The translations under genes were made by a program, and so were the position numbers. Positions 58 through 33,562 of a stretch of DNA of 33,562 bases are shown here, in pieces (position 1 is the stretch's first letter; every line of letters begins with the position of its first letter). The DNA is from a virus (lineage: Duplodnaviria; Heunggongvirae; Uroviricota; Caudoviricetes): IMG/VR virus record IMGVR_UViG_2850808358_000004; one strand, given 5' to 3'. The notes under the pieces are model-generated. The model was given only the letters and a program-made list of their open reading frames with translations, ran no database searches and was not told the DNA's origin.

Positions 58-83
58 AAAAGAAAAAAGGCCGCAGAGCGGCC
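58..83 (-). terminator. Rho-independent terminator-like hairpin (GGCCGC-AGA-GCGGCC at 69-83) followed on the minus strand by a T-rich run (complement of the A-run at 58-68)
   Basis: Perfect 6-bp inverted repeat with 3-nt loop directly read in sequence; T-tract lies 3' on the minus strand, immediately downstream of the leftward gene ending at 193. Confidence 0.45.
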
Positions 84-192
84 ATAATCACAACCCAAAA
101 CCAATAAGTTACATAATTATCAAAGAGTTACAGACACACAAAAACACAGCCAACCACAACAAATAACATAGATGTGGTCAATTTGTGGATCA

Positions 193-630
193 TCATCCAA
201 CAAATTTAGCAACAAATACAGCAACCGCCGCCGTGAAAATGGTTGTGCATACTGGCACAATAATGCCACTCCAACGCCACTTCGTATTATCATCAACCTT
301 GTCAAACCGCCGATTCATCTCATCCATAATCTTGTCAAAGCGTTTATCCATCGCTTCGGTAAGCTCACCCTTCAGGCTGTTAATGTCTGATTTGAGCTGC
401 TCTTTCAGGTGAGCTGTATCAGATTTAAGCTCACCTTTCAGATTCGCAATATCGCATTCAAGAGCACCTTTCAGATGTGCTATGTCTGCTTTGAGTTCAC
501 CTTTCACCTCACCAACATCGGCTTTAGTTGAGAGGTTTGTAGTGCGTTCAGCAAGCGTCGCAAGGTCGTTTCTTGTTAGCGATAAATCACCTTCGAGCCG
601 CTCAATTCGCCTTTCAAGTTTATCTGACAT
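193..630 (-). CDS. Coiled-coil protein with four to five 11-residue repeats and a C-terminal transmembrane helix (architecture resembles phage XhlA/DUF1640-type membrane-anchored coiled-coil proteins)
   Basis: ORF track 193..747; likely true start is the ATG at 630 (MSDKLERR...), preceded by GGAGG 5 nt upstream; hydrophobic C-terminus IIVPVCTTIFTAAVAVFVAKFV; repeat units ELKADIAHLKG / ALECDIANLKG / ELKSDTAHLKE / QLKSDINSLKG. Confidence 0.55.
   Translation of the reverse strand: MSDKLERRIERLEGDLSLTRNDLATLAERTTNLSTKADVGEVKGELKADIAHLKGALECDIANLKGELKSDTAHLKEQLKSDINSLKGELTEAMDKRFDKIMDEMNRRFDKVDDNTKWRWSGIIVPVCTTIFTAAVAVFVAKFVG
361..522. repeat. Tandem 33-bp repeats (about 5 copies) encoding the hendecad coiled-coil repeats of the 193..630 gene
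   Basis: Units read directly: tttgagctgctctttcaggtgagctgtatcaga / tttaagctcacctttcagattcgcaatatcgca / ttcaagagcacctttcagatgtgctatgtctgc / tttgagttcacctttcacctcaccaacatcggc, with a degenerate copy upstream. Confidence 0.7.
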
Positions 631-730
631 TCCGCCTCCACTACTGCCGCCATCGCCACCATGATAAAGCACATCACGCTCAGAATGCGACACACTACCT
701 GCTGAATTACCGAAAAGATTTCTTGCTACA

Positions 731-1231
731 TTACCCATTATCACCATCCTGCGCTTTGTCTTTCTCCAACCACTTCAGCACCGCAGACGTACGATAAAGG
801 CTCAGGTAACCACAATTCAGGCAATGCAGCGTGTAATAAGTTTTGCGCATATCAGGTATGCTCTTAACATCACCCAAAAAAGTATAAGATACATAATGCT
901 TTATGTTCTCTTTAATTAACTCACTCTGCTCCTCCAGGGGTAGGTTGTTAAAATTTTCTGGTTTCTTATTTTTATCCCAGCAAAGATCCATACTTTCAGG
1001 AACAGATAATCGCGACGATCCACATGAAGGGCAGACACTGGAGACCCCCTTCTCAGACAAGAAACGGAAGAAGATTTCTGGCGTAATCTCCATCAGCCGC
1101 TCTTTATGTTTTTTGACACGACTCATCGACTTCTTATTGATTTCATCAGCTTCTTCTTTGCATTTATCTTCTATATATTTCGATAGTAAATAGTCATATA
1201 ACTCTTTTTTTGTAGGTTTTTTTATTTCCAT
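731..1231 (-). CDS. Hypothetical protein with two CxxC pairs (CPSC ... CLNC; possible zinc ribbon), markedly AT-rich relative to neighbours
   Basis: 166-aa ORF, K/E-rich, start ATG 2 nt from the integrase stop; same strand as int and the coiled-coil gene; no recognisable catalytic motif. Confidence 0.5.
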   Translation of the reverse strand: MEIKKPTKKELYDYLLSKYIEDKCKEEADEINKKSMSRVKKHKERLMEITPEIFFRFLSEKGVSSVCPSCGSSRLSVPESMDLCWDKNKKPENFNNLPLEEQSELIKENIKHYVSYTFLGDVKSIPDMRKTYYTLHCLNCGYLSLYRTSAVLKWLEKDKAQDGDNG

Positions 1232-1233
1232 AG

Positions 1234-2210
1234 TTACATTCCTCCCAAGGGATTAAACCTCACCGCATCCTGCAAGTAATCCGGCGCAAGATGGGCATAA
1301 ATCATCGTTGTCTGAATCTTTGCGTGCCCCAGAATTTTCTGGAGCGTCAGAATATTGCCGCCGTTCATCATGAAATGACTGGCGAAGGTGTGGCGCAGCG
1401 CATGAACAGCCTGGCCGTCAGGAATATCAGGTGCGACCGTTTTGATAACATCACGAACCAGTGGATAATCCAGTGTTGGAAACACCAGCTTTCCGCCCCG
1501 TTTTTTGATCTTCTCAAACAGGCTTTCAGAGATAGGAACGGTACGGTTTTTACTGTTCTTTGTTTTTGAAAACGTGATTCGGCAATGAAGAACGCGACGC
1601 TGCTCCAGTGCCTCTACCTCGCCCATCGCGCCCCGGTCGACAGAAGGATTTCGACAGCCAGCCGTTCATCGGGATTTTCAGCCAGTGCATCCAGCAACTG
1701 AACACATTCAGACTTACTCAGATATCCCATTTCGCGCTCGTTAACCTTCATTCCTTTAAGGCCTTGAACGGGGTTATCGTTAAGAAAATGGCCGGATGAG
1801 ATGAGTGCGGTAAACATCGCGCTTAACGCCCCAATCTCTCGATTTATGGTGCTGGGTTGTATCCCCTGCTCTATCCTGTACACACGCAGCTCGGTGAGCA
1901 TCGTTGTATTAAGTTTATGCACGCACGGGTCATCCATTGCCTCACTCAAGCGCAGCAATTTAAGGTGCGTGTTATGCCCTGACCTCATTAACTGGCCGTG
2001 GTATTTCCACCACAAGTCAATAAGCACTGACAGCGGACGGCGATCAATGGAGTTTCCTTTCCACTCATTGTTATGCTGTTGCGCCAGCACCCACCGCTCA
2101 TATAAAACTGCATCCGATTTCGTTTTAAATTTTTTGCGAATGCGTTTGCCTTTACGCCCCTCAGGGCGCATGTCAAGAAGATACCCTCCCGGAATTGATT
2201 TTATGCTCAT
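1234..2210 (-). CDS. int: Tyrosine integrase (P2/186-type), interrupted by a single-base frameshift near 1615-1630 (possible pseudogene or sequencing indel)
   Basis: Two ORF-track pieces (1614..2210 N-terminal; 1234..1626 C-terminal) that together give about 325 aa; C-terminal piece carries HALRHTFASHFMMNGGNILTLQKILGH...MIYAHL typical of the tyrosine recombinase catalytic domain; frames join at ...STGARW / GEVEALEQ in a G-run. Confidence 0.85.
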
Positions 2211-2258: not shown

Positions 2259-2570
2259 TTAGCCGGGCTGTGTGCCAGTCTTGCGGGGGCTTTGTGAACG
2301 AGATGTGACATCGTACCCATCAGGGGAGAGAGCCGGGCTGATCTGCCCCGCAGCCTCATTTGTTTTTCCTGTCATAAGCCACATTGTGTACTTTTCGAAA
2401 TCTTTAGAATTAATTACGCGATCGACAACGCTTAAACCAACCTCTCTTTTGCCACTCTCATAATTCTTTATGGTTCCGAGATTTATCCCGGTAACATCGG
2501 CAAACTCAACTTGAGTTAACCCTTCACTCTTCCGTATCTCTTTCAGTTTTTTTTCATACCCACTTGACAT
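2259..2570 (-). CDS. Immunity repressor, P2 C-type (small HTH repressor)
   Basis: 103 aa; LTQVEFADVTGINLGTIKNYESGKR HTH; divergent from the early operon and adjacent to int, the position and size of the P2 C repressor; GGAGA upstream of ATG. Confidence 0.7.
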   Translation of the reverse strand: MSSGYEKKLKEIRKSEGLTQVEFADVTGINLGTIKNYESGKREVGLSVVDRVINSKDFEKYTMWLMTGKTNEAAGQISPALSPDGYDVTSRSQSPRKTGTQPG

Positions 2571-7102: not shown

Positions 7103-7423
7103 GTGATCATCATGCACACACAAAAAAAACCGCTTGCCATGTCGCAATCAGTCAGGTTACATTTCCGCTGCACCTCATAAAACGGGTGCCGGGTTTCGCA
7201 GCCCGCTGACAAACATAGCGCACAACCGCGCCAGCGGTTTTTTTGTGCGTACTGTATCGCCACATCTTTTTCGCACACGAATTATGGTGGGGCGTACGGG
7301 GCCGACTTCGGTCGGGCCGGGTTCTATGTTTGCCGGTACTGCGAACCTCGTACGTCTCGCCACCCACAGTTTCGCAGCTCTGGATGGTGAGTTTTCAAAA
7401 CTTACACACATAGAGGCCACATC

Positions 7424-7654
7424 ATGGCAAACCGCAAACAACAGCGCGCATACGCTGCGCGTCGTCACATCCGGACTGAAATCAACCGCAGACTTTTCCG
7501 CGCATCACGCGTCGCGCAAATCATGCACATCAATATGCTGCATGAACGCAGCCACGCGCTGTCAGACAGCTACTGCGCCGCTGTATTCAGCTATCTGGCG
7601 GATGATCTGCACGAGCTTCAACAGCTCATCCAGCAGCAAAACAAACTCCATTAA
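7424..7654 (+). CDS. Hypothetical small basic protein
   Basis: 76 aa, K/R/Q-rich, AGAGG RBS; preferred over the overlapping 198-aa ORF 7134..7730, whose composition looks non-coding. Confidence 0.4.
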   Translation: MANRKQQRAYAARRHIRTEINRRLFRASRVAQIMHINMLHERSHALSDSYCAAVFSYLADDLHELQQLIQQQNKLH

Positions 7655-7726
7655 TTCCTGTTCCGGGCCTTTCCTGCACCTTGCGGCGGGAGGCCTTCGC
7701 ACATCTTTAACAAAGCGAGGTGCAGC

Positions 7727-8116
7727 ATGATTGACCGTCATGACTTCGTAAAATGGGTGCGCACACAGGACACCCGTCTGGCTCCAAAACTTCAGGCAAT
7801 GTTTGATTTCTATCTCCGTGCCCGCGCCAGCCAGGCTCGCACCACAAAACCAGAGAACGCAGGCCCCCTTTATTTCATCGTGGACGACTGTTACCGCGTG
7901 GACTTCACACCACACGGTCTGGCCCTGTACACCCTGACACCACACGGCGACTCCCTGCTGGCGTATTACAACTCCCCTGCCTCCGTGTTTGCAGCAATGC
8001 TGGCGCATCGCACCGCTGGCGGGTGTGCCTCGCTGAGTGAATACACCACTGAGTTTAACCGTCTTTCTGCCCTCTTCTCGCAGGAATGGCAACGCGTGAC
8101 AGGGTGTCAACCATGA
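7727..8116 (+). CDS. Hypothetical protein immediately upstream of the replication gene
   Basis: 129 aa, GAGGTG RBS, stop overlaps the gpA start. Confidence 0.5.
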   Translation: MIDRHDFVKWVRTQDTRLAPKLQAMFDFYLRARASQARTTKPENAGPLYFIVDDCYRVDFTPHGLALYTLTPHGDSLLAYYNSPASVFAAMLAHRTAGGCASLSEYTTEFNRLSALFSQEWQRVTGCQP

Positions 8117-33418: not shown

Positions 33419-33562
33419 ATGTCGCAAAAATCGCTAATCGCCATCACCACACTGTGCGTGACGGCAATCCTCATCATCTGGATGTTGCAGGGTTCGCTCT
33501 GCGAGATACGGATGAGTTTCTGGGGAGCGGAGTTTGCGGCGTTCTTACAATGTAGACAGTAA
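33419..33562 (+). CDS. Hok/Gef-family type I toxin (small membrane peptide)
   Basis: 47 aa MSQKSLIAITTLCVTAILIIWMLQGSLCEIRMSFWGAEFAAFLQCRQ: N-terminal TM helix followed by the family-typical SLCEIR ... EFAAFL segment, closest in pattern to HokA; AGGAGG RBS 8 nt upstream. Confidence 0.7.
   Translation: MSQKSLIAITTLCVTAILIIWMLQGSLCEIRMSFWGAEFAAFLQCRQ

What the first reader, a model, noticed from the sequence alone, without database searches (positions are those of the whole stretch)
193..1231. Integrase-adjacent two-gene cargo cassette: AT-rich zinc-ribbon protein plus repeat-containing membrane-anchored coiled-coil protein
In P2-like prophages int normally sits right at the attachment site. 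Here two co-oriented genes lie beyond the int stop (first only 2 nt away) and end at a terminator. The 166-aa protein is strongly AT-rich with two CxxC pairs; the 145-aa protein is a coiled coil of 11-residue repeats ending in a TM helix. Neither is a recognisable phage core gene. The composition and position suggest horizontally acquired cargo, possibly a small exclusion or membrane-acting effector pair. This is my top candidate for an undescribed accessory system.
Basis: partly seen in the sequence, partly recalled or inferred. Interest (0 to 1): 0.6.

Follow-up and report, generated by a model that had tools for sequence, protein, structure and literature searches.

The report
Conserved prophage zinc-ribbon/membrane-stalk gene pair
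Two tightly coupled small genes with no characterised relatives sit between the integrase and the attachment site of a P2-like E. coli prophage; they form a conserved, mobile module (a cytoplasmic zinc-ribbon protein plus a membrane-anchored coiled-coil stalk) that is probably made in lysogens and is a reasonable but untested candidate for a phage-exclusion or defence system.

Summary
On the minus strand, a 166-aa protein with two CxxC pairs (731-1231) starts 2 nt after the integrase stop. A coiled-coil, C-terminal-TM protein (193-738) follows, and the unit ends at a hairpin+T terminator (83-59). Three corrections apply. The second gene is most likely 181 aa, with an 8-nt ATGGGTAA start/stop overlap, not 145 aa. 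The terminator is the host ihfA terminator in the att core. The integrase carries a frameshift.

Both genes lie inside the prophage: identity to empty sites ends at base 83. The pair recurs as a pair in all 16 contexts examined, down to about 25% identity: beside int, between the repressor and int, beside ogr without int, inside a tail-gene cluster, and at other prophage edges.

The stalk protein has the DUF1640/CCDC90 neck (beta-layer LSTKAD) and hendecad stalk, whose copy number varies in 11-aa steps. Among E. coli prophages at this site, the zinc-ribbon gene plus the first ~30 codons of the stalk gene are swapped as one block between near-identical flanks.

No family of known function, PADLOC model, solved structure or viral structure model matches either protein. 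The function is unknown. My best guess, at modest confidence, is a lysogen-expressed membrane-tethered sensor/effector pair acting against other phages.

The parts
59..83 (-). Intrinsic terminator that ends the cassette. It is the host ihfA terminator and the host-side end of attL.
   Evidence: Hairpin with 6 GC pairs plus a T run. Sampled empty-site E. coli genomes match the window only through base 83, and in an empty site this hairpin lies just downstream of ihfA.
84..192 (.). Phage-side arm of attL: AT-rich non-coding DNA between the att core and the stop of the stalk gene.
   Evidence: GC 0.33. It is conserved at 88-97% among prophages at this site that carry different cargo, e.g. H27 matches bases 1-193.
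193..738 (-). Stalk gene, 181 aa. Layout: variable N-terminal peptide (1-25), Gly/Asp/Ser-rich tract (26-36), helix 37-68, beta-layer neck LSTKAD (69-74), hendecad coiled-coil stalk (75-146), C-terminal TM anchor (about 157-179).
   Evidence: ORF. The AF2 monomer is disordered at 1-36, with helices 37-68, 72-146 and 150-180 and a break at 69-71. hhalign against PF07798-bearing DUF1640 proteins gives probability 99.5% over residues 69-134. The TM segment is from the hydropathy scan. The 8-nt ATGGGTAA overlap with the upstream stop is read from the sequence.
628..630 (-). Conserved internal Met codon (M37). This is the RefSeq start of the 145-aa form and a possible second translation start.
   Evidence: A Met or GTG follows the Gly-rich tract in all 12 lineages; 10 of the 11 that have such a tract carry GGAGG 1-13 nt before it, usually 4 or 7. 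A synonymous-codon shuffle does not show selection beyond what the Gly codons give.
402..506 (-). 33-nt tandem repeat that encodes the 11-residue (hendecad) stalk units.
   Evidence: TRF: period 33, 3.2 copies. Homologues differ in length by multiples of 11 aa: 192/181/170/159/148 for long forms and 145/134/123/112 for short-form annotations.
650..1250 (-). Swapped allelic block: the zinc-ribbon gene plus the first ~30 codons of the stalk gene.
   Evidence: Sliding identity to prophages at the same site: the flanks (int 3' end from about 1266 upward, stalk body from about 640 downward) are 97-100% identical. The block is 45-88% identical in L010 and essentially unalignable in L003.
731..1231 (-). 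Zinc-ribbon gene, 166 aa: an N-terminal long helix followed by a C4 zinc-ribbon core.
   Evidence: ORF. C67, C70, C137, C140, G141 and W154 are invariant across 54 family members. AF2 mean pLDDT is 82, with beta-strands flanking both CxxC motifs. It matches phrog_4293, a family of unknown function, at E=1e-22.
1234..2210 (-). P2-type tyrosine integrase, frameshifted here. It is the upstream gene of the same transcription unit.
   Evidence: Pfam Int_N and Phage_integrase on two ORFs. There is a 1-nt deletion relative to the intact 325-aa int of NC_013353.
2259..2570 (-). C-type HTH repressor, the first gene of the presumed lysogenic C-int-cargo operon.
   Evidence: HTH_3 and phrog_147 transcriptional regulator. 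The scan found no promoter-like site oriented to drive the cassette between here and the cargo: none on the minus strand upstream of the two genes.

Best explanation
The cassette is a self-contained two-gene accessory module (a 'moron') carried by P2-like and other temperate myoviruses of Enterobacterales.

Gene 1 encodes a soluble C4 zinc-ribbon protein. Gene 2 is translationally coupled to it and encodes a tail-anchored inner-membrane protein. Its cytoplasmic part is a DUF1640-type beta-layer neck plus a hendecad coiled-coil stalk, probably trimeric. This is preceded by a flexible Gly-rich linker and a short variable N-terminal peptide.

In this prophage the pair is read through from the lysogenic C-int transcript and stops at the ihfA terminator in attL, so it should be made in lysogens.

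I infer that the zinc-ribbon protein docks on the N-terminal peptide of the stalk protein, because the two are exchanged together as one allelic block. That would give a membrane-tethered complex in which the zinc-ribbon plus peptide is the specificity (sensing) part and the stalk plus TM is the constant membrane part.

The most likely role is in phage-phage conflict, either superinfection exclusion or abortive-infection-type defence of the lysogen. This is analogous in layout to lambda rexA/rexB in the cI operon.

Shown here: the anatomy, strict co-occurrence of the two genes, mobility between contexts, the allelic block swap, and the position in the lysogenic operon.

Inferred only: expression in lysogens, physical interaction, trimerisation, and any anti-phage activity.
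For: 1. Strict pairing. Every zinc-ribbon family member whose context I read has the stalk gene immediately downstream, either overlapping by 1-8 nt (ATGxxTAA, ATGA or TAATG) or separated by 0-1 nt. This covers E. coli, Salmonella, Providencia and Klebsiella loci and unnamed distant lineages. Zinc-ribbon identity falls to about 25%.

2. Mobility. The pair lies between int and attL at the btuC site. It also lies between the C repressor and int (L042); beside ogr with no int; inside a tail/baseplate cluster with a terminator-like hairpin just downstream of the pair (L034); at prophage edges next to raiA or a U32 peptidase gene; and next to hinT.

3. Lysogenic operon. The genes are tightly packed: C, then a 48-nt gap, int, a 2-nt gap, the zinc-ribbon gene, and an 8-nt overlap with the stalk gene. 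The scan found no promoter-like site oriented to drive the cassette between the repressor gene and the cargo: none on the minus strand upstream of the two genes. That P2 C and int are co-transcribed from Pc is textbook knowledge of P2 and was not tested here.

4. Block swap. The zinc-ribbon gene and the N-terminal ~30 codons of the stalk gene differ between prophages whose flanks are 97-100% identical. Comparing the window with L010, 8 nonsynonymous and 2 synonymous codon differences fall in the first 36 codons, against 6 and 5 in the remaining codons of the gene.

5. Stalk protein anatomy. The beta-layer motif matches the one described for DUF1640 in PMC4786415.

6. The slot is a cargo slot with either/or occupancy. 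The int-att interval of P2 is reported as a minor defence hotspot holding 3% of P2 systems (PMC13586616).

7. Low GC: 0.387 and 0.454 against 0.523 for the window.

Against: The interaction between the zinc-ribbon protein and the N-terminal peptide rests only on co-inheritance. A recombination breakpoint in the repetitive Gly-coding tract would give the same pattern without any contact.

Cargo in phage hotspots is not always defensive. The alternative occupant of this slot, a 131-aa ORF, is equally uncharacterised.

Expression in lysogens is inferred from gene layout only.
Confidence: 0.4

Rival explanations
1. The pair is a toxin-antitoxin-like or addiction module. The tail-anchored protein would be a membrane-damaging toxin and the upstream zinc-ribbon protein its neutraliser, stabilising the prophage (and possibly also aborting infections).
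For: The layout is two small, translationally coupled genes, with the soluble product upstream and the membrane protein downstream. There is a weak PHROG holin-family hit to the C-terminal part (phrog_689, E=0.006). The pair sits at the edge of a mobile element.
Against: No toxin or antitoxin family matches either protein. In L033 an IS element has removed the first CxxC half of the zinc-ribbon gene while the stalk gene stays intact. That argues the stalk protein alone is not lethal, although the insertion may also silence it. A single TM helix behind a stalk of more than 100 residues is unlike known small membrane toxins such as the Hok-type ORF at the other end of this window.
Confidence: 0.15
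2. The pair is a lysogenic-conversion factor that changes host physiology rather than phage sensitivity. For example, it could be a membrane scaffold like mitochondrial MCUR1/CCDC90B, or a stress or ribosome-tethering protein like the tail-anchored ElaB/YqjD/YgaM proteins, with the zinc-ribbon protein as its client or regulator.
For: The neck and stalk are homologous to DUF1640/CCDC90 proteins (PMC4786415). That MCUR1 acts as a scaffold factor is stated in the abstract of PMC7519068. The tail-anchored topology with a cytoplasmic coiled coil resembles ElaB/YqjD, a comparison drawn from my own knowledge.
Against: The head region does not align to DUF1640 heads: the hhalign match starts at residue 69. 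Pfam PF07798 scores 21.9 bits, below its 33.5-bit cut-off. The rapid allelic turnover of the zinc-ribbon/peptide block and the restriction to prophage cargo slots fit conflict systems better than housekeeping scaffolds.
Confidence: 0.2
3. The pair is an accessory of the phage's own life cycle: a lysis-timing factor of the XhlA type (a coiled-coil membrane protein acting with holins), or a regulator of integration/excision coupled to int.
For: The pair is tightly coupled to int here (2-nt gap). Its architecture is reminiscent of XhlA of PBSX, a resemblance recalled from my own knowledge. One relative sits among late tail genes (L034).
Against: The pair occurs without an adjacent int. It sits away from any lysis cassette, inside the repressor-int unit, sometimes between C and int. 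About half of the otherwise near-identical prophages at this site lack it and carry a different gene, so it is dispensable for the phage cycle. No Pfam XhlA or holin hit appears at E up to 1.
Confidence: 0.1
4. The pair is neutral hitch-hiking DNA or decaying ORFs with no current function.
For: The integrase next to it is frameshifted in this window, so this copy of the prophage may be decaying. No function can be assigned.
Against: Both ORFs are intact in all 16 contexts but one (the IS-disrupted L033). Four Cys, one Gly and one Trp are invariant across 54 sequences at about 25% mean identity. Gene order, coupling and partner architecture are conserved across several Enterobacterales genera.
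Confidence: 0.05

Closest known systems
DUF1640 / CCDC90 family (Pfam PF07798; MCUR1, CCDC90B and prokaryotic homologues)
   Same: Both have the beta-layer neck motif [aliphatic]-[AS]-T-K-x-[DE] at the start of the stalk (LSTKAD here), a coiled-coil stalk built from LKGELKxDIAx hendecads, and a single C-terminal TM anchor. hhalign to PF07798-bearing proteins gives probability 99.5% over 66 columns. The motif is described in PMC4786415.
   Different: The region N-terminal to the neck does not align with DUF1640 heads. Here it is a 32-residue helix preceded by a Gly-rich linker and a variable peptide. Pfam's own cut-off is not reached (21.9 against 33.5 bits). This protein also has an obligate zinc-ribbon partner gene, which I did not find described for DUF1640 proteins in the papers searched.
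Lambda rexA-rexB (exclusion genes in the repressor operon)
   Same: Both are two-gene cargo transcribed with the repressor in lysogens, with one soluble and one membrane protein. The module is dispensable for the phage. This comparison of layout rests on my own knowledge of lambda.
   Different: I recall no relationship between the Rex proteins and these two families and did not test one; searches with the pair found no described family or solved structure. RexB is a polytopic membrane protein, not a tail-anchored coiled coil. No exclusion phenotype is known for this pair.
Accessory and defence hotspots of P2-like phages (old/tin, Z/fun, and the minor int-att hotspot)
   Same: The pair sits between int and the att site, inside the element boundaries, with content that varies between close relatives. 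PMC13586616 reports this interval as holding 3% of P2 defence systems.
   Different: The genes here match no catalogued defence system. Membership in the hotspot is positional, not functional.
Glo of Vibrio phage K139 (a P2-family phage)
   Same: Glo is an accessory gene of a P2-family phage reported to take part in phage exclusion (PMC8537503 and PMC4870250, both citing Nesper et al. 1999). From memory, it lies in the control region near int.
   Different: Glo is a single periplasmic protein, not a pair of a zinc-ribbon protein and a tail-anchored protein. No sequence relationship was tested or is expected.
PHROG families phrog_4293 and phrog_9415
   Same: The two proteins match these viral protein families (E=1e-22 and 2e-13), so both were already catalogued among phage proteins.
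   Different: Both families are labelled 'unknown function', and the entries scanned here carry no function.

Membership tests
DUF1640 / CCDC90 (PF07798) | Score at or above the Pfam gathering cut-off for PF07798 | tested here: not met
   21.9 bits, E=1.8e-4, against a cut-off of 33.5 bits. Some close homologues do carry a precomputed PF07798 hit, and RefSeq names the protein 'DUF1640 domain-containing' or 'CCDC90 family'.
DUF1640 / CCDC90 (PF07798) | Beta-layer neck motif [aliphatic]-A-T-K-[polar]-[DE] at the start of the C-terminal stalk (PMC4786415) | tested here: met
   L69-S-T-K-A-D74 in the window protein. The motif is FATKSD, SATKED or LSTKTD in most lineages and looser (YAKKED, YAKSED, YASKGD) in L013, L034 and L040. 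The AF2 helix breaks exactly at residues 69-71.
DUF1640 / CCDC90 (PF07798) | Coiled-coil stalk homologous to that of family members | tested here: met
   hhalign of A5 against A6 (PF07798-bearing proteins): probability 99.5%, E=3.5e-22, 66 columns, 47% identity. Caveat: the A6 sequences were recruited by similarity to this protein.
DUF1640 / CCDC90 (PF07798) | Single C-terminal transmembrane anchor | tested here: met
   Hydropathy maximum of 2.43 over residues 159-177, preceded by K-W-R-W, with only four residues after the segment. AF2 places a helix at 150-180.
DUF1640 / CCDC90 (PF07798) | N-terminal head domain of the family | tested here: not met
   The profile-profile alignment starts at residue 69, so residues 1-68 find no counterpart. 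Residues 1-36 are predicted disordered.
DUF1640 / CCDC90 (PF07798) | Trimeric assembly | not testable with these tools
   Only monomer prediction was available.
C4 zinc ribbon | Two CxxC knuckles, each on a beta-hairpin, conserved across the family | tested here: met
   C67, C70, C137 and C140 are invariant in 54 sequences. Predicted strands lie at 79-83, 131-137 and 143-147 around the motifs, with mean pLDDT 82. Metal binding itself is not testable here. No named zinc-ribbon Pfam family reaches its cut-off; the best is Zn_ribbon_13 at 16.4 against 23 bits.
Catalogued anti-phage defence systems (PADLOC-DB v2.0) | Significant match of either protein to a defence-system model | tested here: not met
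   The zinc-ribbon protein has only DUF3800_VII at E=0.0066. The stalk protein has only coiled-coil-region hits to LmuB, LeoBC and ZorA at E of 1e-4 to 1e-3. Systems described after 2023 could not be checked.
P2-like int-att cargo hotspot (PMC13586616) | [quoted passage not shown] | tested here: met
   The host match ends at base 83. Of 299 E. coli genomes with this int type, 39 plus 86 carry variants of the pair and 158 carry an unrelated 131-aa gene.
Holin / XhlA-type lysis proteins | Family match and location in a lysis cassette | tested here: not met
   No Pfam holin or XhlA hit at E up to 1. There is only phrog_689 at E=0.0063 with no stretch passing on its own. The pair is located in the repressor-int unit.
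Type II toxin-antitoxin modules | Recognisable toxin or antitoxin domain, plus lethality of the toxin alone | tested here: inconclusive
   No domain match. The layout of two coupled genes fits. L033 keeps the stalk gene beside an IS-disrupted zinc-ribbon gene, which weakly argues against lethality. Toxicity is not testable here.

The most novel reading that the evidence does not exclude
The pair is a previously undescribed two-component prophage immunity system. A trimeric DUF1640-type stalk anchored in the inner membrane presents, on flexible Gly-rich linkers, short peptides that hold an exchangeable zinc-ribbon sensor. Swapping the sensor-plus-peptide block retargets the system. Stalk length, set by hendecad copy number, and possibly a second, peptide-less isoform made from the conserved internal Met, tune its activity. 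This would also give the first function for a prokaryotic DUF1640/CCDC90-type protein.
Probability: 0.25. Interest if true: 0.7.

Novelty: new member of a known kind. Interest (0 to 1): 0.45.

Why it matters
Cargo slots in temperate phages are a productive source of new anti-phage systems. PMC13586616 reports that 6 of 8 randomly chosen unknown-function loci in P4 hotspots protected against phages.

This pair is a clean, compact candidate of about 1.05 kb. It is present in roughly 2% of complete E. coli genomes, including O157, O145, O103 and O26 STEC strains. It shows an unusually clear signature of modular allele exchange, and its membrane-stalk protein belongs to a family (DUF1640/CCDC90, which includes human MCUR1) for which I found no established prokaryotic function.

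The work also exposes annotation errors that hide the module. RefSeq omits the short-type zinc-ribbon ORF in the two genomes checked and starts the stalk gene at an internal Met.

If the pair turns out to have no phage phenotype, it is simply one more uncharacterised moron.

Tried and rejected
- AF2 of a fused zinc-ribbon-linker-stalk chain with a paired alignment of 10 lineages, to test docking.
- Foldseek against AFDB50. The library was not available.
- The search for related loci with the diverse alignments A2 and A3. No stretch was conserved enough. A1 found only close relatives.
- Foldseek against BFVD gave only generic zinc-finger/TFIIS-like hits, none at E<=0.001.
- PDB sequence search found nothing below E=0.25.
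- tblastn of the zinc-ribbon protein found nothing in INPHARED phages or in PLSDB plasmids.
- Test for a selected internal Shine-Dalgarno site before M37. GGAGG is present in 10 of the 11 lineages that have a Gly-rich tract before the conserved Met. However, synonymous-codon shuffles reach the same anti-SD pairing energy in 9-53% of trials per lineage. My Fisher combination of those fractions gives p of about 0.2, so the dual-start idea remains a possibility, not a finding.
- The ZorA/LmuB hits in PADLOC and the apolipoprotein/Mer2 hits in Pfam were rejected as coiled-coil composition matches.
- The 'host genes outside the prophage' reading was rejected by comparison with empty sites.
- Literature searches for DUF1640 plus phage, CCDC90 plus anti-phage, tail-anchored plus prophage plus exclusion, and the RefSeq accessions found no description of the pair.
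Full report
**What is in the sequence**

On the minus strand the left end of the window reads as follows:
- C-type HTH repressor (2259-2570).
- A P2-type tyrosine integrase (1234-2210).
- A 166-aa ORF (731-1231).
- An ORF ending at 193.
- 109 bp of AT-rich non-coding DNA.
- A GC hairpin with a T run at 83-59.

The 166-aa protein has CPSC at 67-70 and CLNC at 137-140. Its ATG is 2 nt after the int stop, with GGAGGA inside the last int codons. The last ORF carries five 11-residue units (residues 75-129), encoded by a 33-nt tandem repeat at 402-506. It ends in a strongly hydrophobic helix at residues 159-177. GC is 0.387 and 0.454 for the two genes, against 0.523 for the window.

**Prophage boundary**

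All 5,426 complete E. coli genomes match the left end of the window, and in sampled genomes without an insertion the match covers bases 1-83. In an empty site those bases lie between btuC and ihfA, and the hairpin is the ihfA terminator. The prophage therefore starts at or just before base 84, and both genes are inside it. The 'terminator' of the cassette is the attL copy of a host terminator.

**Gene model of the second gene**

RefSeq starts it at the Met at 630, giving 145 aa named 'DUF1640 domain-containing' or 'CCDC90 family'. The frame is open upstream to an ATG at 738 whose first 8 nt (ATGGGTAA) overlap the stop of the zinc-ribbon gene.

The same arrangement holds in every relative I read. 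The start overlaps the upstream stop (ATGxxTAA, ATGA or TAATG) or lies within a nucleotide of it. It is followed by 24-44 codons that end in a Gly/Asp-rich tract and a conserved Met.

The chance that such a stretch stays open is 0.04-0.22 per lineage, and at least eight of the N-terminal sequences are unrelated to one another. I therefore take 193-738 (181 aa) as the full product.

The conserved Met after the Gly tract is preceded by GGAGG in 10 of the 11 lineages that have a Gly-rich tract, 1-13 nt upstream and most often 4 or 7. It may be a second start. However, synonymous shuffling shows that Gly codons alone give comparable Shine-Dalgarno pairing. This remains open.

**The pair is a module**

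The zinc-ribbon family is small. It has 90 cluster representatives at E<=0.001 among 1.84 billion proteins, all 57-180 aa long. C67, C70, C137, C140, G141 and W154 are invariant across 54 aligned members.

I read the genomic context of 16 members spanning the family. All have a downstream, coupled gene with the same architecture: short variable peptide, Gly-rich tract, a helix of the LEKRVERLE type, a [LFY][AS][TK]K-x-[DE] motif (looser in three distant lineages), a coiled coil and a C-terminal TM.

In two RefSeq genomes the 'missing' partner is simply unannotated. It is a 137-aa ORF with a TTG start.

The contexts differ:
- Between int and attL at the btuC site in E. coli and Salmonella, and beside int in Citrobacter and Klebsiella.
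- Between the repressor and int (L042).
- Next to ogr with no int, in Providencia.
- Inside a tail/baseplate cluster with a terminator-like hairpin just downstream of the pair (L034).
- At prophage edges beside raiA, a U32 peptidase gene or hinT.

This is the behaviour of a moron.

**Allelic structure**

Among E. coli prophages at the btuC site, the int 3' end and the stalk-gene body plus att arm are 97-100% identical. The block from about 1250 to about 650 is replaced. This block is the zinc-ribbon gene plus the first ~30 codons of the stalk gene, up to the Gly tract. It is 45-88% identical in L010 and unalignable in L003. Comparing the window with L010, the first 36 codons carry 8 nonsynonymous and 2 synonymous codon differences, against 6 and 5 in the remaining codons of the gene.

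The zinc-ribbon protein and the N-terminal peptide of its partner are thus inherited as a unit. I read this as a sign that they contact each other, but a breakpoint in the repetitive Gly-coding tract is an alternative explanation.

The stalk also varies in length by whole hendecads (192/181/170/159/148 aa).

**Prevalence**

299 of 5,426 complete E. coli genomes carry this int type. Of these, 39 have this stalk type, 23 of them with this zinc-ribbon allele. Another 86 have a more divergent variant of the pair. A further 158 have an unrelated 131-aa ORF in the same slot.

The zinc-ribbon protein finds nothing in the isolated-phage (INPHARED) or PLSDB plasmid records by tblastn. One Klebsiella record in the phage collection carries a short-type variant of the pair, found through the stalk gene.

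**What the proteins look like**

The stalk protein is predicted disordered at 1-36 and helical at 37-68. The helix breaks at 69-71, exactly at LSTKAD. It is helical again at 72-146 and 150-180. The motif [aliphatic]-A-T-K-[polar]-[DE] at the start of the stalk is the beta-layer signature reported for DUF1640 membrane proteins (PMC4786415).

A profile-profile comparison with PF07798-bearing proteins gives 99.5% probability from that motif through the stalk. The region before it does not align, and Pfam's cut-off is not reached (21.9 against 33.5 bits).

The positive residues before the TM and the near absence of residues after it indicate a tail-anchored protein with its bulk in the cytoplasm (the topology is an inference).

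**Likely expression**

The genes are packed as C, a 48-nt gap, int, a 2-nt gap, the zinc-ribbon gene, and an 8-nt overlap with the stalk gene. The scan found no promoter-like site oriented to drive the cassette between the repressor gene and the cargo: none on the minus strand upstream of the two genes. In P2, C and int are transcribed together from Pc in lysogens; this is established knowledge of P2 and was not tested here. In one relative the pair sits between C and int. The pair should therefore be made in lysogens.

**Function**

Nothing here demonstrates a function. The most economical model is a lysogen-expressed, membrane-tethered two-protein complex acting in phage-phage conflict. It fits the following features:
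- Position in a recognised, if minor, P2 defence hotspot (PMC13586616).
- Either/or occupancy of the slot.
- Low GC and mobility between phages.
- Fast turnover of one sub-module next to a constant membrane sub-module.
- The precedent of exclusion genes riding in repressor operons. Lambda rexAB is from my own knowledge; K139 glo is cited in PMC8537503.

I put this at about 0.4. The rivals are a TA-like module (0.15), a host-physiology scaffold like other DUF1640 or tail-anchored proteins (0.2), a phage life-cycle accessory (0.1) and junk (0.05). That the two genes form one conserved, co-functioning accessory module is much more secure, at about 0.9.

**Novelty and verdict**

The proteins were already catalogued as unknown PHROGs. 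RefSeq labels the stalk protein by its DUF, and the slot is a known cargo site. The following are not described in anything I could search: the obligate pairing, the corrected gene models, the swapped zinc-ribbon/peptide block, and the hendecad length polymorphism.

I rate it a new member of a known kind (phage accessory cassette, candidate defence). It is moderately interesting and cheap to test.

Noticed in passing
window 1234-2210 (-), around 1622-1626: The integrase is split into two overlapping ORFs (198 aa and 130 aa) by a 1-nt deletion in a G run (GGG here, GGGG in NC_013353, whose int is an intact 325 aa). Either the prophage can no longer excise, or this is a homopolymer sequencing error.
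   Followed up: partly
window 33419-33562 (+): A 47-aa Hok/Gef-family toxin ORF (PF01848, 29.3 bits against a cut-off of 22) lies at the very right end of the window. Rfam reported no Sok-type RNA at gathering threshold.
   Followed up: partly
window 7170-7244 and 7280-7367 (+): Rfam hits above gathering score to isrK (69 bits) and to C4 antisense RNA of the P1/P7 immunity type (81.8 bits). They lie at the start of an Ash-like ORF (7134-7730) within the early region of this P2-like prophage.
   Followed up: no
L003 4724-5137 and L002 4736-5149 (NZ_CP135706, NZ_CP038389): RefSeq leaves a ~480-bp 'gap' between int and the stalk gene. It holds an intact 137-aa short-type zinc-ribbon ORF with a TTG start. 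RefSeq also starts the stalk gene at the internal Met in every RefSeq record examined.
   Followed up: yes
L048 2082-2477 and L005 3190-3585 (same int-attL slot in other E. coli): 158 complete E. coli genomes, including O104:H4 and O111 strains, carry an unrelated 131-aa ORF (WP_000416308/WP_000416304) in place of the pair. It has no Pfam-independent lead: no PADLOC or NCBIfam hit.
   Followed up: partly
L040 5056-6840; L041 4886-6075; L042 5687-6766: In more distant P2/186-like prophages further cargo lies at the att-side end of the same operon: beyond the pair in L040 and L041 (a 594-aa orphan protein; a 160-aa membrane protein plus a 210-aa protein with a weak PADLOC PDC-S64 hit, E=1.5e-4), and beyond int in L042 (a PIN_12 protein).
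   Followed up: partly
L033 4747-6375: In one relative an IS (a 307-aa transposase ORF) has cut off the N-terminal half of the zinc-ribbon gene, while the downstream stalk gene remains intact.
   Followed up: no
window 198-225: A 12-nt tandem repeat (CAACAAATACAG, 2.3 copies) lies at the 3' end of the stalk gene, in the TM-coding part. It is probably incidental.
   Followed up: no
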